Shown here piece by piece: positions 7,415-16,658 of a DNA stretch of 24,339 bases. The stretch comes from Candidatus Moranbacteria bacterium CG_4_8_14_3_um_filter_34_16. GTDB taxonomy: Bacteria; Patescibacteriota; Minisyncoccia; Moranbacterales; UBA2206. The notes under the pieces are model-generated. The model was not told the origin of the DNA. It ran no database searches and saw only the letters and a program-made list of their open reading frames with translations. Positions within the stretch are counted from its first letter, which is position 1, and every line of letters starts with the position of its first letter. The position numbers and the translations under genes are program-made. Location of the stretch: contig PFHO01000019.1 in NCBI GenBank assembly GCA_002782345.1, positions 1-24,339 of the forward strand. The letters are read 5' to 3'.

Positions 7415-7517
7415 AGTATGGCAATATAATAAAATCGCGATTTAATTTTTTGTCAGTTTTAAGAGGGAACAGCCAAAACAATGAAGACAGCAACTTTAAA
7501 AATAAAATTATAAATAC

Positions 7518-7546
7518 AGTCTATTTTTAAAAAAAAGAAAAGTCAA
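7518..7546 (-). promoter_or_regulatory. Possible sigma70 promoter for clpC-comF
   Basis: Minus strand TTGACT(7546-7541)-17 bp-TAGACT(7523-7518). Confidence 0.4.
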
Positions 7547-7664
7547 ATAAAATTTAAAAAAATGTTTCTATTGATGAGCGTATAAAACAATATTTTTCTT
7601 CAGTCAAGCTTTATTTGCATTGGAAGAGAGGGTATTATTTAGGGCTTATGTTTTTCTAAAAAAG

Positions 7665-7712
7665 ACTTACTATGTAACTTACTATGTAACTTACTATGTA
7701 ACTTACTATGTA
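7665..7712. repeat. Four perfect tandem copies of the 12-mer ACTTACTATGTA
   Basis: Copies at 7665, 7677, 7689 and 7701; the array contains the palindrome TTAC-TAT-GTAA once per repeat. Confidence 0.97.
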
Positions 7713-7739
7713 AATATGACATTTTTATTTAATTTTGAC

Positions 7740-7751
7740 ACTTACTATGTA
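7740..7751. repeat. Fifth, isolated copy of ACTTACTATGTA
   Basis: Exact match, ending 4 bp upstream of the TTGACA at 7756. Confidence 0.95.
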
Positions 7752-7755
7752 ACTA

Positions 7756-7783
7756 TTGACAGAATTTTTTAGAGTGCTATTAT
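7756..7783 (+). promoter_or_regulatory. Strong sigma70 promoter pointing toward the 23S-5S locus
   Basis: TTGACA(7756-7761)-16 bp-TATTAT(7778-7783) with extended -10 TG at 7775-7776. Confidence 0.7.
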
Positions 7784-7940
7784 GGACAAGTGATTTAGAG
7801 AGCTATCAAGAACTGGTTTAAGAGGTTATTGAAAAAAAGGAATAAAACGAGTTAAAAAAAGTATATTTTGGAAATAGTCGTGAATTATTTTTTTATCCTT
7901 GTCAAGCTTTGCCTGAGGTAAAGTTTGAAAAGGGCAACTA

Positions 7941-7985
7941 ATGAAAATTTTTTCTCAAAAAAATAACAGAAAAAAAAGCGGGTGA
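7941..7985 (+). CDS. Possible 14-aa leader peptide MKIFSQKNNRKKSG
   Basis: ATG 7941 to TGA 7983-7985, preceded by AAAGGG about 6 nt upstream. Its 3' end overlaps a strand able to pair with the downstream terminator stem. Too short to support statistically. Confidence 0.25.
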   Translation: MKIFSQKNNRKKSG

Positions 7986-8013
7986 TTTTTTGGCTTTTGT
8001 TTTATTAAGAAGC

Positions 8014-8036
8014 CCGCTTTAAAAAGCGGTTTTTTT
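8014..8036 (+). terminator. Intrinsic-terminator-like hairpin in the rRNA upstream region
   Basis: CCGCTT-TAAA-AAGCGG followed by T7. Confidence 0.6.
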
Positions 8037-8359
8037 GTTTTCAAATAAAGTTTAAAATTTTGGAGAATAAAGTGGGAAGAAAATAATAGCAATTGGCGAA
8101 GAGATAAAAACGTTTGACAATTTTTTTGAAAAAATGTCCAGCGTGTAAATTTCCGCGTCAAGTCTTTTTATAAGAAAAATAAAAGGCTCGCGAACTTTGA
8201 CAATTGAATAGTTCGGATGATTTTGTTTCCTGTGAAAGTAGATATCGATCAAGAAAAGATTTTTGTAGCGAAGAATTGAAACAAAGTTAACGGACAAGGT
8301 CTATTGCTGTATTTTTTTTGTTATTTCTAGCGGAAAAAAAAGAATATTAGCGATTAGTC

Positions 8360-8394
8360 AACTTGATATTTGTTTGCAATACAAGTGTCAAGTT
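8360..8394 (+). other. Pre-rRNA leader hairpin
   Basis: AACTTGATATTTGT / ACAAGTGTCAAGTT, 14 bp with G-U pairs, 7-nt loop. Confidence 0.6.
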
Positions 8395-8419
8395 CGTAGG
8401 TAAATTTGCAAAATTGCAG

Positions 8420-8447
8420 TTGGCGATTGCTAACTGCTAACCGAACT
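8420..8447 (+). other. 5' arm of the 23S processing stem
   Basis: TTGGCGATTGCTAACTGCTAACCGAACT pairs with 12486-12512 (AGTCGGTTAGTGGTTAGCAGTAGCTAA) over ~26 bp with G-U pairs, one mismatch and one bulge. Confidence 0.85.
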
Positions 8448-8481
8448 GCTTAATTTTTTGTTTTTGCAAAAAATTAAGCAG
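8446..8481 (+). other. Perfect 15-bp hairpin just 5' of 23S
   Basis: CTGCTTAATTTTTTG / CAAAAAATTAAGCAG, 6-nt loop. Confidence 0.8.
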
Positions 8482-8621
8482 AAAAAAATAAGAGCGGTAA
8501 TACTAATGCATATGGCGGATGCCTAGACATCAAAAAGCGATGAAGGACGTAGCTAGTTGCGAAAAGCTTCGGGGAGGTGCTGAGCAACCTTTGATCCGAA
8601 GATATCCAAATGGGGCAACCC

Positions 8622-8809
8622 AACCCATTCTTCACTTCGTTCAGAATGTAATTTCTAATTTTCAATTTACAATTTTCAAATAAATTCTAATCTCAAATTT
8701 TTAGAAATTGAAACATTGAGAATTATTTATAAAATTAAAAATTTTAAATTAAAAAATTTGTAAAGTTTATTTTAATGGCAAAATTTCTGGATAAAGTGAA
8801 GAATGGGTT
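8622..8809 (+). other. Insert/expansion in 23S helix 9 (188 nt versus ~18 nt in E. coli)
   Basis: Perfect 16-bp basal stem AACCCATTCTTCACTT / AAGTGAAGAATGGGTT, lying between GGGGCAACCC and ATATTAACTGAATTCATAGG; AT-rich heptamer core. Confidence 0.93.
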
Positions 8810-8933
8810 AATATTAACTGAATTCATAGGTTAATATAGCGTACCCGGCGAATTGAAACATCTTAGTAGCCGGAGAAAAAGAAAACTAATGTGATTCCCT
8901 AAGTAGTGGCGAGCGAAAGGGGAAAAGTCTAAA

Positions 8934-9113
8934 CCAGCTTCACCTCACTGCGTTCGGTGAAGAATTCTAGATTTTAAATTCTAAATTTTAAATCAAATCT
9001 AAATTTTCAAATGATTGAATTTTAAAAATTTGTTCATTTGGTCATTGAAAATTCGTTTAAAATTGAAAATTTAAAATTGAAAATTCTGTCCGAGCATAGC
9101 GAGGTGCAGCTGG
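8934..9113 (+). other. Insert/expansion at ~E. coli nt 270 (H15/H16 region), 180 nt
   Basis: CCAGCTTCACCTCACTGCGTTCGG / CCGAGCATAGCGAGGTGCAGCTGG stem between AAACC and GGGGTTGCGAGG; AT-rich heptamer core. Confidence 0.9.
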
Positions 9114-9413
9114 GGTTGCGAGGTAATTTTACTCGTTTAATCGGGGCGATGAATTGTTTGTTAGCAGAACGTTTTGGAAAAAACGACCAAAGAAAGTGAA
9201 AGTCTTGTAAGCGAAAACAAACAACATTCGTGAAATTATTCTCAAGTAGGGCGGGACCGGAGAAATCCCGTTTGAATCTGGGGTCACTATAACTCCAAGA
9301 CTAAATATTTTTGATGATCGATAGCGAACAAGTACCGTGAGGGAAAGGTGAAAAGTATCCCGATGAGGGAGATGAAATAGTATCTGAAACCATATGCTAA
9401 CGAAGAGTAGGAG

Positions 9414-9576
9414 CCGTATTTTTCACTAACGTCCAGAATAAATTTTTAATTTCCAATTTTTAATTTTATAAATAATTTTTAATGTTTTGATTTTATAAAC
9501 ATTAGAAATTAGAAAATTATTTAAAAATTGTAAAAATTAAAAATTATAAAATTCGGAGCGTAAGTGAAGAATACGG
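9414..9576 (+). other. Insert/expansion in 23S helix 25, 163 nt
   Basis: CCGTATTTTTCACT / AGTGAAGAATACGG stem between GTAGGAG and TGACTGCGTGCTTTTTGTA. Confidence 0.93.
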
Positions 9577-10191
9577 TGACTGCGTGCTTTTTGTAGAACG
9601 ATCCAGCGAGTTAGTTTTATACGGCTTGCTTAATCCGTTAATAGCGGAGGAGGCGTAGTGAAAGCGAGCCTTAACCGGCGATTTGTCGTATGGACTAGAC
9701 CCGAAGCCAGGCGAGCTATTTATGAGCAGGGTGAATCTTGAGTAACATCAAGAGGAGGCCCGAACCCACCGGCCGTGCAACACCGGGGGATGACTTGTGA
9801 ATAGAGGAGAAATTCCAATCGAGCTTGGCGATAGCTGGTTCTTCCCGAAATAGCTTGAGGGCTAGCGTTAGGTAACTATCTGTCGGAGGTAGAGCGACTG
9901 AATGAGAATTCGCGGTTCGCCGTAGGTTTCTCAACCAAACTCCGAATTCCGTCAGAACTATCCTAGCAGTCAGAAATCCGGGGCTAAGCTCGGATCTCAA
10001 AAGGGGAAAAGCCCATGATCGCAATCTAAGGTCCCTAATTTATGTTAAGTGGAAAAGGAAGTAAGATTTCTTATACAGCTAGGAGGTTGGCTCAGAGGCA
10101 GCCATCCTTTAAAGAGTGCGTAATAGCTCACTAGTCTAGAGATTTCGCGCCGAAAATGTAACGGGGCTAAAACATAATACCGAAGATGCGG

Positions 10192-10362
10192 GCTACTATT
10201 CTTCACTAACGTTCAGAATGAAATTTTAAAGACTAAATTTAAAATTTTAAATCAAGTCTAAATGAATAAATTTTTAAAATTTAAACATTGGGAAATTTAA
10301 AATTCAATTAAAATTTATAATTTAAAATTGAAAATTTCCGAGCGATAGCGAAGGATGGTAGC
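10192..10362 (+). other. Insert/expansion in 23S helix 45, 171 nt
   Basis: GCTACTATTCTTCACT / AGCGAAGGATGGTAGC stem between CCGAAGATGCGG and GGTAGGGAAGCGTTC. Confidence 0.93.
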
Positions 10363-10881
10363 GGTAGGGAAGCGTTCCATATGCGCTGAAGCGGAATGCG
10401 TGAGCAACCGTGGAGTTTATGGAAGTGAGAATGCTGGAATTAGTAACCGCAATTGGGGTGAGAACCCCCGACACCGAAAGTCTAAGGTTTCCTGGGCAAT
10501 GGCAATCATCTCAGGGTTAGTCGGGCCTAAGGCGAGGCCGAAAGGCGTAGTCGATGGACACACGGTTAATACTCCGTGGCTTTCACGTTATTCGATGGAG
10601 TGACGCATCCTAGTAGTTCTTGCCAATTATTGGATTTTGGTAGGGATATTTAGATGGCGAGACAGGTAAATCCGTTTCGCAATACATCAAGATATTTCTC
10701 TAATTTGTCTTCGGACAGAAAAGAAGAATGAGCAGGGTGCCGGGAAAAGCTTCTAAGATTAGTAGCGTGAGAACCGTACTAAAACCGACACAGGTAGACT
10801 GGGCGAGTAGCCTAAGGTGAACGAGTGAACCTTCGTTAAGGAACTCGGCAAAATAGCGTCCGTAACTTAGGAATAAGGACT

Positions 10882-10967
10882 GCCCGCCGTGTATAGCACA
10901 GAGATTCTAAATTTCAGAAAAATAATTAAAATATAAATTTGGAATTCCCGTGCTATGCGTGGTGGGC
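10882..10967 (+). other. Extended 23S helix 63 with a short AT-rich tip (86 nt)
   Basis: GCCCGCCGTGTATAGCAC / GTGCTATGCGTGGTGGGC stem capped by GATTCTAAATTT...AAATTTGGAATT (about 10903-10947). Confidence 0.8.
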
Positions 10968-11416
10968 CGCAGCTAAAGATATCAAGCGACTGTTTACCAA
11001 AAACACAGGTCTCTGCAAACCCGCAAGGGGATGTATAGGGGCTGACGCCTGACCAGTGCTGGAACGTTAACGGGAGCGGTGCAAGCCAATCCCCGAAGCG
11101 CCAGTGAACGTCAGCGATAACTATAATCGTTCTAAGGTAGCGAAATTCCTTGACAGGTAAGTTCTGTCCCGCATCAAAGGCGTAACGACTTGATAACTGT
11201 CTTAACGAAGAGCTCGGTGAAATTGCAATGACGGTAAAGATGCCGTCGACCTGCAGCAAGACGAAAAGACCCCGTGGAGCTTTACTACAACTTGGTATTG
11301 AGTTTGAGATTATACTGCCTAGAATAGGTGGGAGGCTTTGAAGTTCGTCTTTTGGGATGAACTGAGCCAATAGTGTAATACCACTCTGGATAGTTTTAAA
11401 TTCTAACCCTGGACCG

Positions 11417-11558
11417 TTAAAAGGCAAAAAATTTTCAATTTTCAATTCACGATTTTAAAACAATTTCTAATGATTAAATTTTTTAATTTTAAAATCATTT
11501 AGAAATTGAAAATTGTTTAGAAATTGAAAATTAAAAATTAGAAATTTTTGTTTTTTAC
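11417..11558 (+). other. Insert/expansion in 23S helix 79, ~142 nt
   Basis: Lies within the CCCTGGACCG / CGGTTCGGGG stem preceding GACAGTGCCTGGTGGGTAGTTTGACTGGGG; clearest heptamer array (AATTTTC repeats ... TTAGAAA/TTGAAAA repeats). Confidence 0.93.
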
Positions 11559-11580
11559 CGGTTCGGGGACAGTGCCTGGT

Positions 11581-11626
<46 letters not shown>

Positions 11627-11774
11627 TTTACAAAGGTAGGCTAGGTCCGGATGGAAATCGGGCTGGTAGTGCAAACGCGCAAGCCTGCTTTACTGCGAGA
11701 CTCATAAGTCAATCAGTCACGAAAGTGGAAGTTAGTGAACCGACCATCGCTTATAGGAGCGTGGAAGATCATCA

Positions 11775-11807
<33 letters not shown>

Positions 11808-11832
11808 CCTCCCAAGAGTTCACATCGACGGA

Positions 11833-11893
<61 letters not shown>

Positions 11894-12134
11894 TGGCTGT
11901 TCGCCAATTAAAGTGGTACGCGAGCTGGGTTCAAACCGTCGTGAGACAGGTTGGTCTCCTATCTGCTGTAGGCGTTTATTGCTTGAGAGGATTCTTTCCT
12001 AGTACGAGAGGACCGGAAAGAACAAACCTCTGGTGTACCAGCTGTGGCGCCAGCCGCATTGCTGGGTAGCTAAGTTTGGAAGGGATAACCGCTGAAAGCA
12101 TATAAGCGGGAAGCCCACCTCAAGATTAGGCAAT

Positions 12135-12307
12135 GTCGTGCGAAGCGCGAAAATCCCAATAACCAAAAAACAATAACCAAACAAATTACAATAACTGAAA
12201 TTCAAAATTTCAAACATAATTAAAAAAGTTTGAGATTTGAAAATTGGAATTTGAAATTTATTTGGAATTTGTATCTTGTAATTTGGAATTTACGTGCTTT
12301 GTGCGGC
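12135..12307 (+). other. Insert/expansion in 23S helix 98, 173 nt
   Basis: GTCGTGCGAAGCGCG / CGTGCTTTGTGCGGC stem between CTCAAGATTAGG and CTGGAAGATTACCAGGTTGATAGG; TTGGAAT-type heptamer array at 12230-12289. Confidence 0.92.
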
Positions 12308-12420
12308 TGATTTCCTGGAAGATTACCAGGTTGATAGGTCTCAGGTATAAGCGAAGTGATTCGTTGAGCCAAGAGATACTAATAAATCAAACTTTATCTC
12401 TCTTATTTTTCTCGTTTAGT

Positions 12421-12476
12421 ATGGAGCATAGAAACGTAAAATGAAGGATATCTTTGTTTTGCGTTTCGTGCTTCAT
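12421..12476 (+). other. Pre-rRNA trailer hairpin
   Basis: ATGGAGCA..GAAACGTAAAA / TTTTGCGTTTC..TGCTTCAT. Confidence 0.7.
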
Positions 12477-12485
12477 AAATTTGCG

Positions 12486-12512
12486 AGTCGGTTAGTGGTT
12501 AGCAGTAGCTAA
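12486..12512 (+). other. 3' arm of the 23S processing stem
   Basis: Complementary to 8420-8447. Confidence 0.85.
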
Positions 12513-12691
12513 TATACGCTTAAGGCAGGAAAGAATTCTTTCCTCCCCAAAGGCGTTTATAATTTATGAAAAATTATAAGGAAAGTTTTCAATTTATTTT
12601 TACGATTTTTTCCGTTATATCAGTTGCTATCGTTTTTTTTATGTTTTTTTCTCCTGTTATGAAAGTGTTTTAAGTTATTTTTGAACGCATT

Positions 12692-12857
12692 GTTTCCGGT
12701 GCTTCTAGCGGTGAGGAAACACGCGATCCCATTCCGAACTCGTTCGTTAAGCTTGCCAGCCCCGATGGTAGCCCGCTCAAATTTTTTAAAATGTTTAGAG
12801 AGATTTCCAAGATTTTGAAGAATTTGAGCGGGTAAGAGTAGGACAGTGCCGGGAACA
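12692..12857 (+). rRNA. rrf: 5S rRNA gene with enlarged helix IV (~165 nt)
   Basis: CCGGT..TAGCGGTGAGGAAACACGCGATCCCATTCCGAACTCG..GTTAAG..CCGATGGTAG ... AAGAGTAGGACAGTGCCGG. Helix I pairing between 12687-12699 and 12849-12861. Ends approximate. Confidence 0.95.
12771..12833 (+). other. Expanded 5S helix IV/loop D (63 nt versus ~19 nt in E. coli)
   Basis: GCCCGCTCAAATTTTTTAAAAT / ATTTTGAAGAATTTGAGCGGGT stem, sitting between GATGGTA and AAGAGTAGG. Confidence 0.92.
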
Positions 12858-13210
12858 ATGCATTCAATTTTTTCTTAAAAAGAGTTGAAAAGTCAAAAAC
12901 TTTTTTGTCTTTTTATTTTTTCAAAATCTGATATCATTTTTTTGTTTTACGAAAACATTTTTCGGGATGTGAAAACATTTTTCATTTTGCTTTTCGCGTT
13001 AAGCATATAAAATCAAGGAGTTATTTGTTTGGTGAAAAATTATTGGAGGATGATTGAGGAAGTTGAAATTAAATTTTCATAATTTTTTGAAAAATTTTTA
13101 AGTATTATAATCTTGAGTGTTGTTTTAATTTATTTTTCTTACAATTTTTATATACAGAATATGTTTGTATTTATTGAATCATTTTTTTTAAAAAAGATTT
13201 AAAACTTTTT

Positions 13211-15001
13211 ATGGAAATAAGAAATATCGCTATTATTGCTCATGTTGATCATGGAAAAACCACAATCACGGATGCGATTATGCGTCAAACTGGAGCGGTT
13301 TTGGAAGAAGATGCTGGCAGTATGGATAACAATGATTTGGAAAAAGAAAGAGGAATAACCATCTACTCCAAAAATACCAGTGTTTTTTACAAAAACACCA
13401 AAATAAACATCGTGGACACACCAGGGCACGCTGATTTTGGATCGGAAGTGGAAAGAGTTTTACGTTCTATTGATAGCGTTATTTTAGTTGTGGACGCACA
13501 AGAAGGACCGATGTCTCAAACTCGTTTTGTGCTCAAAAAATCTTTGGAATTAGGTCTTAAACCGATTGTGGTTCTTAATAAAATTGATAAACCGGCGGCT
13601 GATCCGGATATGGCACAAGAGAAAGTATTTGAACTTTTTTTAGATTTGGGTGCGACAGACGAGCAACTTGATTTTACAACTATTTACGCGATTGGAAAAC
13701 AAGGAATCGCGAAAAAAAGTCTGCAAAACGAATCTGCGGATTTATCTCCGCTTTTGGATACAATTTTGGAAAAAGTTGAGCCGGCTTGCGGAAACAAAAA
13801 TTCTCCTCTCACAGCACAACCTTTTAATTTAGGATATGATAATTTTTTAGGGCGATTGGCGGTGGCGAGAATTTATGATGGAACGGTAAAAGTGGGACAA
13901 AGTTTGTGGGTGAAAAAAACAAATGGAGAGGTGTTGCCGGCAAAAGTTACCAAACTTTTCACTTTTCGCGGGACTGTTAGGCAAGAAACGCAAGAGGCTT
14001 TAGCGGGAGATATTGTAATGATTGCCGGATTGGGCGCGATTGAAATTGGAGAAACTATTTGCGAAGATAAAGAGCAAAAAACACTTCCGACAATTTCCAT
14101 TGATGAACCAACTATTACTCTTCGCTTTTTAATCAACGATTCTCCTTTTGCCGGGCGAGAAGGAAAATTTGTTACTGGAAAACAATTGCGAGAACGTTTG
14201 GAAAAAGAATTGGAAATAAATATAGGGCTTAAAATTGATTTTAGTTCTTCTGAATTTTTCAGTGTTTCCGGTCGCGGAGAACTTCATATTGCCATACTTT
14301 TGGAAAATATGCGCAGGGAAGGATATGAAATTCAGGTTTCCCAACCCCAAGTGATTATCAAAAAAACAGGAGAAGAAAAAATGGAACCTTTTGAAGAAGT
14401 AACTGTGGATGTTCCGATGGAAATGGCCGGAGGGATAATTGAAACTTTAGGGAAAAGGAAAGGAATTATGATTGATATGCAATCGCATGGTTCTCAAACC
14501 AGAATGATTTTTGAAATTCCAACACGCGGACTTTTGGGATATAGAGGACAATTTATGGTGGATACCAAAGGAGAAGGGATTTTATGTTCTCGCGTTATCG
14601 GTTTTCGTTCTTTTGTTGGAGAGATAAAAAAACGTCAAACCGGATCTATGGTTTCTATGGCTTCTGGGAAAGCGTTGGGATTTTCTTTAGCCAATCTTCA
14701 AGAAAGAGGCGCTTTATATATTGGACCAGGAGCGGAAGTTTATGAAGGTATGGTTATTGGTAATACTGCCAAAGGAATGGATATGTCAGTTAATCCGATA
14801 AAAGGAAAACAACTTTCCAATATGCGTTCTTCAGGAGCAGATGAAGCTATCCAACTTACTCCTCCAATGAAACTTTCCATTGAAAGAGGATTGGAAATTA
14901 TGGCGGGAGATGAATATATGGAAATCACTCCCAACTCAATGCGATTAAGAAAAAAATATCTTAACGAAGTGGAAAGAAATAGAATGTCGCGGAAAAAATA
15001 A
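13211..15001 (+). CDS. typA: Translational GTPase TypA/BipA
   Basis: [65 protein letters not shown]-terminal [15 protein letters not shown]. Confidence 0.97.
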
Positions 15002-15034
15002 TTTTTCTTTTTTAACTTGAAAAAGTTTAGAAGT

Positions 15035-15043
15035 TGTGGATAA
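15035..15043 (-). promoter_or_regulatory. Consensus DnaA box
   Basis: TGTGGATAA, the reverse complement of TTATCCACA, ~60 bp upstream of the mraZ promoter. Confidence 0.5.
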
Positions 15044-15103
15044 CTTTTTTTAAAATGGCTTATAAAAGCTATTTTTTTTTGTAAAAATTTTTTTAAATGT
15101 GAT

Positions 15104-15132
15104 TTGACTAATGGTAAATAGTGGATTAGAAT
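15104..15132 (+). promoter_or_regulatory. sigma70 promoter of the mraZ/dcw operon
   Basis: TTGACT(15104-15109)-17 bp-TAGAAT(15127-15132). Confidence 0.75.
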
Positions 15133-15140
15133 ATAGTTAA

Positions 15141-15170
15141 AGTAGAGTTAAGTGGAGTAAAGTGGTAAAT
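15141..15170 (+). promoter_or_regulatory. MraZ autoregulatory binding repeats
   Basis: 10-bp-periodic AGTAGAGTTA / AGTGGAGTAA / AGTGGTAAAT, plus AGTGG at 15120; matches the GTGG-N6 repeats known upstream of mraZ. Confidence 0.8.
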
Positions 15171-15181
15171 TTTCTTGTGTT

Positions 15182-15616
15182 ATGTTTATTGGAGAGTTTC
15201 AACATTCAATTGATCCTAAAAAAAGATTGGCTGTGCCGAGTAAGTTTCGCGGAGAACTGAAAAGTGGGGTGGTGATTACTCGCGGAATGGATAAATGTTT
15301 GTTTCTTTATCCAGTGAAAGTTTGGAAAAATTTGGCGGAAAAATTAGGAACATTGCCGATGGGGGAAGCCAACACTAGAAGTTTTGTGAGAATTATGTTG
15401 GCGGGAGCGGTAGATTGTGAAATTGACAAACAAGGAAGAATTTTAATTCCAGATTATTTGAAAGAATATGCGTCTCTTTCCAAGAATGTGGTGATTGCGG
15501 GTTTGTATAATCGTTTGGAAATTTGGGACGAAAATAAATGGGAAGAATATAAAAAGAAAGCGGAAAAAAATACCGATGAAATTGCCGAACAGTTGGGGAA
15601 GCTTGGAGTATATTAA
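15182..15616 (+). CDS. mraZ: Division/cell wall cluster transcriptional repressor MraZ
   Basis: MFIGEFQHSIDPKKRLAVP and IDKQGRILIP duplicated AbrB-like motifs; LEIWD. Confidence 0.97.
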   Translation: MFIGEFQHSIDPKKRLAVPSKFRGELKSGVVITRGMDKCLFLYPVKVWKNLAEKLGTLPMGEANTRSFVRIMLAGAVDCEIDKQGRILIPDYLKEYASLSKNVVIAGLYNRLEIWDENKWEEYKKKAEKNTDEIAEQLGKLGVY

Positions 15617-15618
15617 TA

Positions 15619-15704
15619 AATTTTCAATTTTTAAATAATTTTAAATTTTTTTAAATTAAAATTTGAATCATTGGAAATTGTTTGAAAATTAAAAATTGAA
15701 AATT
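15619..15704. repeat. Palindromic heptamer-repeat element, same family as the rRNA insert cores
   Basis: Perfect 16-bp inverted repeat AATTTTCAATTTTTAA / TTAAAAATTGAAAATT. Right arm TTGGAAA-TTGT-TTGAAAA-TTAAAAA-TTGAAAA parallels the H79 insert. Confidence 0.85.
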
Positions 15705-16658
15705 ATGAATTCCAAAGAAATGTCTATTCATAAATCAGTTTTGTTAAAAGAAGTCATTGAAGTTTTGGATATAGAAAAAAATGATATTGTTGTTGACGCA
15801 ACTTTAGGAGGAGGAGGACATAGCTTGGAGATATTGAAAAAGATAGAAAAGGGCGGTCAGCTGATAGCATTTGACGCGGATAGAGAAGCGGTAGAAAGAT
15901 TTGATTTAAAATTAAAAAATGAAAATTTGAAAATTGGAAAGAAAATTTTTTTGGTTAATGAAAACTTTGCGAAGTTGAAGGATGTTTTGTCAAATTTGAA
16001 AATTGATAAGGTGAGCGCGATTTTGGCCGATTTGGGCTGGTCGTCAGATCAATTGATTGGGAAAGGGATTAGTTTTCAAAAAGACGAAAGATTGGATATG
16101 CGACTGAATAAAAATCAAAAATTAACAGCCTATGCGGTGGTTAATCAATATCCAAGAGAAAAATTAAAAAGAGTAATTGAAAAATATGGTGAGGAACGAT
16201 TTGCCGGACGGATCGCCTTTTCAATAATAAAAAGAAGAACAGAGAAAAAAATTGAAACAACCAAGGATTTGGCGGAAATAATTGAGAAAGTGATTGGGAA
16301 AAGATATCGAAATCAAAAAATAAATTCTGCCACTAGAACATTTCAAGCGTTAAGAATTGAAGTTAATGAAGAATTGGATAATTTGGAAATTTTCTTGCGA
16401 TCGTCTATTGAAAAATTGGAAAAAGAAGGTCGATTGGCAGTCATTTCATTTCACTCATTGGAGGATAGGATAGTCAAAAATATTTTTAGGGAAAATGCAA
16501 GGGGATGCATTTGCCCGAAAAGTTTTCCTGTATGTATTTGTGGAAAAGAACCGATTGTTAAGGTGGTAACTTCAAAACCGATAATCCCGAAAATTTTTGA
16601 AATTGAAAAAAATCCGAGAGCCAGAAGTGCCAAGTTAAGAGTGTGTGAAAAAATATAG
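15705..16658 (+). CDS. rsmH: 16S rRNA (cytosine1402-N4)-methyltransferase
   Basis: HKSVLLKEV, VDATLGGGGHS, ADLGWSS, LDMRL, ATRTFQALRIEVNEEL, ISFHSLEDRIVK, NPRARSAKLR. ATG 15705 or 15720 preferred over TTG 15696, which lies inside the repeat. Confidence 0.97.
   Translation: MNSKEMSIHKSVLLKEVIEVLDIEKNDIVVDATLGGGGHSLEILKKIEKGGQLIAFDADREAVERFDLKLKNENLKIGKKIFLVNENFAKLKDVLSNLKIDKVSAILADLGWSSDQLIGKGISFQKDERLDMRLNKNQKLTAYAVVNQYPREKLKRVIEKYGEERFAGRIAFSIIKRRTEKKIETTKDLAEIIEKVIGKRYRNQKINSATRTFQALRIEVNEELDNLEIFLRSSIEKLEKEGRLAVISFHSLEDRIVKNIFRENARGCICPKSFPVCICGKEPIVKVVTSKPIIPKIFEIEKNPRARSAKLRVCEKI

What the first reader, a model, noticed from the sequence alone, without database searches (positions are those of the whole stretch)
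12771..12833. 5S rRNA with a ~44-nt extension at the tip of helix IV/loop D
Seen: the E. coli-equivalent 8-bp helix plus 3-nt loop is replaced by a ~22-bp stem (GCCCGCTCAAATTTTTTAAAAT / ATTTTGAAGAATTTGAGCGGGT) with a 19-nt loop, while the rest of the 5S is canonical. Established: loop D (E. coli U89 region) docks against 23S domains II/V near uL16, so it is not a free surface position, and expanded 5S rRNAs are rare. Inference: either the extension is cut out, giving a two-piece 5S, or the central protuberance is remodelled. The AT-rich stem suggests the same insertion process as in the 23S.
Basis: partly seen in the sequence, partly recalled or inferred. Interest (0 to 1): 0.78.

Follow-up and report, generated by a model that had tools for sequence, protein, structure and literature searches.

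The report
Hairpin insert in sole 5S rRNA
The only 5S ribosomal RNA gene of this ultra-small groundwater bacterium (Moranbacteria, CPR) carries a 44-nt hairpin at the tip of helix IV, a site thought too crowded for extra RNA; relatives gained similar hairpins as discrete inserts, so the 5S is either cut into two pieces or the ribosome makes room.

Summary
The 5S gene (12695-12854, 160 nt) has a canonical core. On an intact 8-bp helix IV, loop D is replaced by 14 more base pairs and a 19-nt loop.

It is the only 5S found in the genome. A closed relative genome (CP064994) also has a single 5S, and that one is expanded too.

At least 13 species carry 41-112-nt helix-IV arms, against 11-21 nt normally. 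They are nearly all labelled Moranbacteria or Parcubacteria.

The arms look like discrete inserts:
- G046 has one, while two congeners whose 5S cores are 98-99% identical lack it.
- The G046 arm ends match the insert of another family.
- In G152 the 5S insert has a 75-83% identical copy at the tip of 16S helix h40.

G·U pairs outnumber A·C mismatches 27 to 5, which points to selection on the RNA helix.

Whether the hairpin is cut out or kept could not be tested, because read mapping failed. I favour RNase III excision, giving a two-piece 5S (about 0.45). A retained expansion segment is about 0.35. The 23S region that receives loop D shows no length change, and RNase III is encoded.

I class it as a new variant of known kinds (expanded 5S rRNAs, rRNA intervening sequences). 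This scan earlier noted a similar case in a Yanofskybacteria genome.

The parts
12695..12854 (+). 5S rRNA gene, 160 nt, the only one found in the genome. It lies 291 nt downstream of the 23S gene.
   Evidence: Clade model R1: 97.4 bits, full length 1-110, all pairs standard. Rfam RF00001: 45.2 bits but truncated. Single hit in the genome.
12771..12778 (+). 5' strand of the native 8-bp helix IV (GCCCGCTC).
   Evidence: Relatives without an insert have the same stem type, CCCCGCC/GGCGGGG (G014, G008, G005, G015).
12779..12792 (+). 5' strand of the 14-bp extension (AAATTTTTTAAAAT).
   Evidence: The proximal part is shared with the G004 and G152 inserts.
12793..12811 (+). 19-nt apical loop of the extension. 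It may form a weak 3-5-bp hairpin.
12812..12825 (+). 3' strand of the 14-bp extension (ATTTTGAAGAATTT). It contains the two internal G·U partners.
12826..12833 (+). 3' strand of the native helix IV (GAGCGGGT).
12687..12694 (+). 5' half of an 8-bp flank stem (GCATTGTT) that prolongs helix I. Probably a precursor-processing stem.
   Evidence: Pairs perfectly with 12854-12861. G004 has the same layout.
12854..12861 (+). 3' half of the flank stem (AACAATGC).
8493..12403 (+). 23S rRNA gene of the same operon, 3911 nt, about 1 kb of AT-rich hairpin inserts. The region H35-H44 that receives 5S loop D (window 9760-10200) has canonical length.
   Evidence: 441 nt aligned to model positions 774-1214 without large indels.

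Best explanation
This is the functional, single-copy 5S rRNA gene of a Moranbacteria (CPR/Parcubacteria) bacterium. A discrete hairpin module of about 44-49 nt has been inserted exactly into loop D, on top of an intact 8-bp helix IV.

Shown:
- It is one case of a recurrent class, enriched in this order, of ORF-less hairpin inserts at this site.
- These inserts are gained as units.
- They can have copies at other rRNA helix tips (16S h40 in G152).
- They are kept as helices at the RNA level.

Inferred:
- The insert behaves like a classical bacterial rRNA intervening sequence.
- The long, uninterrupted duplex (22 bp here, the 14 bp of the extension purely A-U or G·U) is cut by the encoded RNase III during 50S maturation and is not re-ligated.
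- The mature 5S then consists of a 5' piece of about 85-95 nt and a 3' piece of about 30-40 nt, held together by helices I, V and the base of helix IV.
- The shortened helix IV can then sit in the normal H42/H39/H89 pocket.
For: Real gene with a canonical core:
-.
- It is the sole copy in G000.
- The closed genome CP064994 has one 5S, 143 nt, and it is expanded.

Recurrence:
- 8 of 124 5S-bearing genomes in the order sample are expanded, and 3 of 56 in the family.
- In all, 13 species have arms of 41-112 nt against 11-21 nt normally, with nothing in between.
- No 5S longer than 132 nt appeared among the roughly 120 genomes of other orders that gave a 5S match.

Modular gain:
- G046 carries a 53-nt insert in the loop of helix IV.
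- Its congeners G014 and G045 have 5S cores 99% and 98% identical and lack the insert.
- The ends of the G046 insert (TTTTGGCTTAA ... TTGAACCAA) match the insert of G035, a different family whose core is only 79% identical.

Mobility between rRNA sites:
- The G152 5S insert has a copy in its own 16S h40. It is 75% identical over 95 nt by BLAST and 83% by column in the alignment, with compensatory changes in the inner hairpin.

RNA-level helix:
- In the extensions, 27 G·U pairs against 5 A·C mismatches (binomial p about 1e-4).
- The sense strand folds better than the antisense strand in 12 of 14 arms.
- There are compensatory pairs within insert types.

For excision:
- RNase III is encoded in G000 and is generally kept in CPR (PMC12641178).
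- Loop D normally enters a pocket at H42 and touches H39 and H89 (PMC3614586).
- Positions 89.1-93 are rated sterically disfavoured (PMC7812874).
- G000's 23S H35-H44 is collinear with the consensus, so no room has visibly been made.
- The helix is a rigid, uninterrupted 22-bp rod.
- CPR rRNA insertions are reported as removed from transcripts, and the short ORF-less ones as probable RNase III intervening sequences (PMC11270868).
Against: - No RNA data were obtained, because read laying failed. Excision is therefore pure inference.
- No naturally split bacterial 5S is known to me.
- The two 5S insertions known to me from RNA-level work (Halococcus morrhuae and, from my own recollection, Thermoanaerobacterium) are retained, although at exposed sites (PMC7812874).
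- Helix IV in this order also shrinks to 3-4 bp (G097, G108). The loop-D contact is therefore dispensable here, and the steric argument taken from E. coli may not transfer.
- The shortest expanded arms (17-19 bp in total) are marginal RNase III substrates.
- The G000 insert has no detectable paralogue in its own genome or order, so mobility is shown for sister cases, not for this copy.
Confidence: 0.45

Rival explanations
1. Retained expansion segment. The hairpin stays in the mature 5S as a 160-nt molecule, and the rod leaves the central protuberance. This would be possible because CPR ribosomes differ there: uL30 is missing and helix IV is otherwise often truncated. The result would be a lineage-specific remodelled surface.
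For: - It is the sole 5S gene, so it must be compatible with function.
- The precedents known to me from RNA-level work, Halococcus morrhuae (PMC7812874; PMC7530397, listed) and, from my own recollection, Thermoanaerobacterium, are retained.
- Helix IV length is very plastic in this order, from 3 to 8 bp. In Parcubacteria generally it is often shortened ('5Gap1', near bL25; PMC9297842).
- uL30, which binds 5S near loop E, was not found in G000 and is absent in all CPR.
- RNA-level selection on the helix fits a structural element.
Against: - Positions 89.1-93 are rated sterically disfavoured, and a 69-nt helix-IV insert is judged likely incompatible with docking.
- Loop D lies in a pocket of H42.
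- 23S H35-H44 shows no length change.
- The 22-bp helix has no hinge.
- Presence or absence within one genus, and fast-diverging distal parts, suggest a neutral or selfish insert rather than a functional arm.
Confidence: 0.35
2. Helix IV grew in place, by slippage or duplication of AT-rich sequence, and was inherited vertically. On this reading it is not an inserted module.
For: - The stem is low-complexity and AT-rich.
- G000 and G004, of the same family, share the proximal 17 bp.
- The three f6 genomes share one arm type.
- The G000 insert has no paralogue.
Against: - Arm lengths are bimodal, 11-21 nt against 41-112 nt, with no intermediates in more than 200 5S genes.
- G046 differs from G014 and G045 only by the insert.
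- Related insert ends occur in different families: G046 with G035, and G000/G004 with G152.
- The G152 insert is duplicated in 16S h40.
Confidence: 0.1
3. The gene is a decaying or non-functional 5S copy, or the hairpin is an assembly artefact, and the working 5S is missing from the 95%-complete assembly.
For: G000 is a 76-contig assembly, 94.8% complete. Its 5S core is the most divergent of the set, at 67-82% identity.
Against: - All modelled base pairs are standard and the conserved loop C and loop E motifs are intact.
- The gene sits in the normal place after the 23S and has a precursor stem.
- CPR genomes usually hold one rRNA copy (PMC9297842).
- A closed relative genome has only an expanded 5S.
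- The G004 expanded 5S is identical in two further independent metagenome contigs.
Confidence: 0.04

Closest known systems
Expanded prokaryotic 5S rRNAs (Stepanov & Fox 2021, RNA 27:133, PMC7812874), in particular the 69-nt helix-IV insertion of Desulfitobacterium dichloroeliminans (site 89.1-93)
   Same: A self-paired helical module is inserted into an otherwise canonical 5S core at or next to loop D. The 16S and 23S genes of the same genome carry inserts too. Ordinary 5S annotation overlooks or mis-truncates the gene.
   Different: There the expanded copy coexists with normal 5S genes and pseudogene remnants, and the authors suspect it is non-functional. Here, and in a closed relative genome, it is the only 5S. 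The taxa differ: CPR Moranbacteria here, against Clostridia, Halanaerobiales, Thermoanaerobacterales, Alteromonadales and Halobacteriales there. The module here sits exactly on the helix apex and recurs in at least 13 species.
Bacterial rRNA intervening sequences cut by RNase III without re-ligation (23S H25/H45 of Salmonella, Leptospira and Coxiella; short ORF-less inserts in CPR 23S, PMC11270868; PMC4990558)
   Same: An ORF-less stem-loop at a helix tip, with sporadic and patchy distribution and signs of lateral gain. It occurs in a reduced genome with one rRNA copy, RNase III is encoded, and its size is within the known range for intervening sequences.
   Different: To my knowledge this has never been described for a 5S rRNA. 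Cleavage is not shown here. A split 5S would be a new outcome.
Halococcus morrhuae 108-nt 5S insertion (PMC7530397)
   Same: The sole 5S type of the organism carries a large structured insertion.
   Different: That case is archaeal. Its site, 104.1-105, lies between loop E and the three-way junction and is solvent-exposed. Retention is proven there by RNA sequencing and cryo-EM.
Shortened helix IV/loop D of Parcubacteria 5S ('5Gap1', Tsurumaki et al. 2022, PMC9297842)
   Same: The same clade and the same structural element. Both show that the tip of helix IV is evolutionarily plastic in CPR.
   Different: The direction is opposite: loss of the tip there, against a gain of 20-95 nt here.

Membership tests
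5S rRNA (Rfam RF00001) | Three-way junction with helices I-V and the conserved loop C and loop E sequence motifs, scoring above the curated cut-off. | tested here: met
   45.2 bits against a gathering score of 38, though the alignment is truncated by the insert. The clade-specific model gives 97.4 bits over its full length with all pairs standard.
5S rRNA (Rfam RF00001) | Genomic place and copy number expected of the working gene. | tested here: met
   It lies 291 nt after the 23S on the same strand. There is a single hit in G000 and a single, expanded 5S in the closed genome CP064994.
Expanded 5S rRNA / expansion segment (Stepanov & Fox) | An insertion of 13 nt or more into the conserved core that folds on itself without disturbing the core. 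| tested here: met
   +44 nt; a 22-bp helix; z = -5.56.
Expanded 5S rRNA / expansion segment (Stepanov & Fox) | The insertion is retained in the mature rRNA. | not testable with these tools
   Read laying failed on a filter and its cap is one call. The RNA runs hold only 14-20% of the sampled words.
RNase III-processed rRNA intervening sequence | An extra stem-loop at a helix tip, absent from close relatives, patchily distributed, ORF-less. | tested here: met
   G046 against G014 and G045. 8 of 124 genomes in the order sample. No ORF fits in 49 nt.
RNase III-processed rRNA intervening sequence | RNase III is present in the genome. | tested here: met
   PF14622 at 132.7 bits, in a 234-aa open frame on contig C28.
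RNase III-processed rRNA intervening sequence | Cleavage in the stem without re-ligation, giving a fragmented rRNA. | not testable with these tools
   No RNA reads could be laid.
Heptamer-periodic palindromic inserts of this genome's 23S and 16S (earlier notes e1-5289032 and e1-5289033) | Sequence similarity to the shared arms and repeats of those inserts. | tested here: not met
   The 5S insert belongs to none of the repeat families listed for 7500-16000 (the 20 largest direct families and 25 longest inverted pairs). Its best other match in the genome is 15 nt. The 16S h40 insert of G000 is of the heptamer type and unlike it.
Group I / group II intron | A catalytic intron core. | tested here: not met
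   No intron family matched in the window at gathering thresholds. The insert is only 49 nt.

The most novel reading that the evidence does not exclude
Moranbacteria, and some other Parcubacteria, make a naturally two-piece 5S rRNA. On this reading a mobile hairpin element lands in rRNA hairpin loops (5S loop D, 16S h40, 23S helix tips) and is tolerated because RNase III trims it out of the precursor. That would leave a nicked 5S in a working ribosome, which to my knowledge would be the first fragmented bacterial 5S.
Probability: 0.4. Interest if true: 0.75.

Novelty: new variant of a known kind. Interest (0 to 1): 0.6.

Why it matters
5S rRNA is the most size-constrained rRNA. Loop D is its deepest contact with the 23S, linking the peptidyl-transferase region and the GTPase centre. 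The one earlier bacterial insert at this spot was dismissed as probably non-functional.

Here a whole lineage carries such inserts in its only 5S gene. One of two things must therefore be true:
- 5S can work as two non-covalent pieces. That bears on the open question of why 5S stays an autonomous, intact molecule.
- CPR ribosomes have a differently built central protuberance.

The presence/absence pair within one genus (G046 against G014 and G045), and the 5S/16S paralogue in G152, also give concrete material for asking how ORF-less rRNA intervening sequences arise and move.

There is a practical point too. Rfam-based annotation truncates these genes, so surveys of CPR rRNA have missed them.

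Tried and rejected
- **Read mapping.** There is therefore no read evidence for or against the insert or its excision. The run list shows 18 groundwater or aquifer DNA runs holding 45-84% of the sampled words and RNA runs holding 14-20%. None was laid, so none counts as evidence.
- **Metagenome scan.** The scan for the G000-type arm found only two contigs, both identical to G004.
- **BLAST of the G000 insert.** Over all 319 genomes of the order it gave only 20-30-nt chance hits in coding regions and at tRNA ends. Within G000 nothing exceeded 15 nt.
- **Paralogue searches.** The inserts of G034, G046, G192 and G004 found nothing in their own genomes.
- **Genomes without a 5S hit.** G002, G003, G019 and G020 gave nothing to BLAST with the 5' 83 nt either. 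The G006 hit lies in a coding region.
- **185k-species pattern scan.** It returned 82 stretches, mostly artefacts: normal 5S genes with a chance ARAGTAGG downstream, mainly Enterobacteriaceae.
- **Pattern syntax.** A pattern with two adjacent variable gaps is not accepted.
- **Terminator.** No terminator-like site was found after the 5S by the simple scan.
- **Literature.** Brown et al. 2015 (Nature) is not held, so I cite its result only through PMC11270868.
- **3D modelling.** Modelling the rod on a 50S structure was not possible with these tools.

Full report
**Observation.** The window holds a 23S gene (8493-12403) and, 291 nt downstream, a 5S gene. The Rfam 5S model passes its cut-off (45.2 against 38 bits) but stops at 12778 with a forced, wrong helix I. 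I built a covariance model from 29 normal-length 5S genes of relatives. It aligns the complete gene at 12695-12854 (160 nt) at 97.4 bits, with every modelled pair standard and 54 nt where the model has a 4-nt helix-IV loop. Read directly, GCCCGCTC (12771-12778) pairs with GAGCGGGT (12826-12833). This is an ordinary 8-bp helix IV of the type seen in relatives (CCCCGCC/GGCGGGG). On top of it sit 14 further pairs (12779-12792 with 12812-12825, all A-U or G·U) and a 19-nt loop (12793-12811). RNAfold recovers the 22-bp rod in both the MFE and the centroid structure (z = -5.56, 0 of 200 shuffles).

**Organism and copy number.** The window is contig C24 of an 819-kb, 76-contig assembly that is 94.8% complete. 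Relatives identified by public titles are 'Candidatus Moranbacteria/Moraniibacteriota' and 'Parcubacteria group'. Only one 5S exists in the assembly, by covariance model and by BLAST of both halves. Because assemblies can miss rRNA copies, I checked a closed 1.05-Mb relative genome, CP064994. It has exactly one 5S, 143 nt long, and that gene is also expanded in helix IV. The 16S gene is unlinked (C70, 1868 nt, with its own inserts).

**Distribution.**
- In the family (71 genomes, 56 with a 5S hit), three are expanded: G000, G004 and G046.
- In an even sample of the order (151 genomes, 124 with a hit), eight are expanded: G000, G004, G034, G035, G120, G152, G186 and G192.
- A strict pattern scan of one genome per species (185,579 species) for a 34-94-nt arm between GATGRTA and ARAGTAGG gave 82 stretches. 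Most were artefacts.
- The true single-hairpin arms were ten genomes titled Moranbacteria or Parcubacteria (two of them mislabelled 'Bdellovibrionales'; one of those is G046, the other is assigned only by resemblance), plus one Spirochaetales MAG. A Sporosarcina genome has an insert beside helix IV.
- Together this makes 13 species with arms of 41-112 nt.
- Normal arms in the order are 11-21 nt, that is stems of 3-8 bp. I saw nothing in between.
- In a class-wide sample, none of the roughly 120 genomes of other orders that gave a 5S match has a 5S above 132 nt.
- Earlier notes of this scan record similar helix-IV rods in a Yanofskybacteria genome and in two other genomes. I did not re-test these.

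**Origin: discrete inserts, not gradual growth.**
1. G046 carries 53 nt in the loop of helix IV. Its congeners G014 and G045 have 5S cores 99% and 98% identical and an ordinary arm (G014: GCCCCGCCTCGGCGGGGTT).
2. The ends of the G046 insert (TTTTGGCTTAA ... TTGAACCAA, 11 + 9 identical bases at fixed distance from the stem) recur in G035. G035 belongs to another family and its core is only 79% identical.
3. In G152 the 5S insert has a second copy in the same genome, at the tip of 16S helix h40. It is 75% identical over 95 nt by BLAST (E = 1.6e-10) and 83% by column in the alignment, including the stem ends CCCGCCCAA[A/G]TTTTTCGATT ... AATCGAAAAA[C/T]TTGGGCGGG. The inner hairpin shows compensatory changes.
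4. G000, G004 and G152 share the proximal arm CCCGC[C/T]CAA[A/G]TTTTT / AAA[A/T]TTTG[A/G]GCGGG and diverge completely distally.

The G000 insert itself has no paralogue in its genome or order. It also does not belong to the heptamer-periodic repeat family of its own 23S and 16S inserts. Its membership of a mobile class is therefore inferred from sister cases.

**Selection acts on the RNA.** Beyond the eight native pairs, the 13 CPR arms hold 190 Watson-Crick pairs, 27 G·U pairs and only 5 single A·C mismatches (binomial p about 1e-4). For a DNA palindrome the two should be equal. Over the 13 CPR arms plus one Spirochaetales arm, the sense strand folds more stably than the antisense strand in 12 of 14. 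Within insert types there are double-sided changes that keep pairing, for example C-G to T-A and CC/GG to TT/AA among G120, G186 and G192. The sequences are related, so these counts overstate independence.

**Fate in the mature ribosome (inferred).**

Arguments for excision:
- Loop D normally enters a pocket at H42 and touches H39 and H89 (PMC3614586).
- Stepanov & Fox rate positions 89.1-93 as sterically disfavoured. They regard the one known helix-IV insert (69 nt, Desulfitobacterium dichloroeliminans, which also has normal 5S copies) as probably incompatible with docking.
- In G000 the 23S stretch H35-H44 aligns base for base with the bacterial consensus (441 nt to model positions 774-1214). 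No space has visibly been made at the rRNA level.
- The 22-bp helix has no hinge.
- RNase III is encoded and is generally kept in CPR (PMC12641178).
- CPR rRNA insertions are reported as removed from transcripts. Short ORF-less ones at classical sites are read as RNase III intervening sequences (PMC11270868).
- The 5S is also flanked by an 8-bp stem that prolongs helix I to about 17 bp (12687-12694 with 12854-12861). Double-strand processing of this precursor is therefore expected anyway.

Arguments for retention:
- The 5S insertions known to me from RNA-level work are retained, although at exposed sites.
- Helix IV in this order can shrink to 3 bp, so the loop-D contact is dispensable here.
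- uL30, which binds near loop E, is absent. bL25 is present.

I put excision, giving a two-piece 5S, at about 0.45. I put retention at about 0.35. Artefact or dead gene gets about 0.04.

**Comparison with what is known.** The feature works like two known things: an expanded 5S rRNA (PMC7812874) and a bacterial rRNA intervening sequence. It meets the testable criteria of both. The deciding criterion, kept or cut, could not be tested. It differs from the published 5S cases in four ways:
- the taxon (no CPR case is listed, and PMC11270868 states that no insertion of 100 bp or more was found in 645 CPR 5S genes);
- its position on the apex of helix IV;
- being the sole 5S gene, also in a closed genome;
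- recurrence with evidence of modular gain.

Rfam-based extraction truncates these genes, which probably explains why they were missed.

**Limits.** There is no RNA evidence. There is no 3D modelling. The genomes are MAGs. Family and genus labels are anonymous GTDB groups. The strict pattern scan misses 5S genes with variant motifs or with arms outside 34-94 nt, so the distribution figures are lower bounds.

Noticed in passing
window 12687-12694 and 12854-12861: A perfect 8-bp inverted repeat (GCATTGTT/AACAATGC) prolongs 5S helix I to about 17 contiguous pairs. It is probably a precursor-processing stem. G004 has the same layout.
   Followed up: partly
G152:C10:33320-33414 (L133:1805-1930): The tip of 16S helix h40 in relative G152 carries a copy of that genome's own 5S helix-IV insert, 75-83% identical. 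Both target stems read CCCGCC/GGCGGG.
   Followed up: yes
G000:C70:17487-19354 (L134): The 16S gene of this genome is unlinked to the 23S-5S operon. It is 1868 nt long, with about 335 nt of inserts, including a heptamer-type insert of about 190 nt at h40.
   Followed up: partly
L133:2396-2773: A group I intron (RF00028, 52.8 bits) lies just 3' of the 16S match in G152.
   Followed up: no
L051:2746-2823 and L114 (Spirochaetales MAG JAIPGG01): A non-CPR bacterium has a 77-78-nt, GC-rich, branched helix-IV arm in 5S genes on two contigs.
   Followed up: no
L083 (Sporosarcina sp. 179-K): A 5S gene with a 74-nt arm, in which two extra hairpins precede a normal-looking helix IV.
   Followed up: no
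L049, L053, L078 and about 40 other Enterobacteriaceae loci: Normal 5S genes are followed about 60 nt downstream by an inverted partial copy of the 5S 3' end (GGCAGTTC[A/G]CTACTCG), and about 10 nt further on by an ARAGTAGG (about 90 nt after loop E). These were false positives of my pattern scan.
   Followed up: no
L002 (G031:C167:575-693): One of the two 5S genes of G031 has a core unlike the rest of the clade. The contig is probably a contaminant.
   Followed up: no
G004 against G152 and G000: The 5S core of G004 is 91% identical to that of G152, a different family, but only 75% identical to G000, the same family. Both G004 and G152 carry the same insert type, so an insert-bearing 5S may have been transferred laterally.
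   Followed up: no
G402:C27:1240-1371 and G433:C4:7905-8036: Two genomes of other orders in the class have 132-nt 5S matches, about 15-20 nt longer than usual. I did not inspect them.
   Followed up: no
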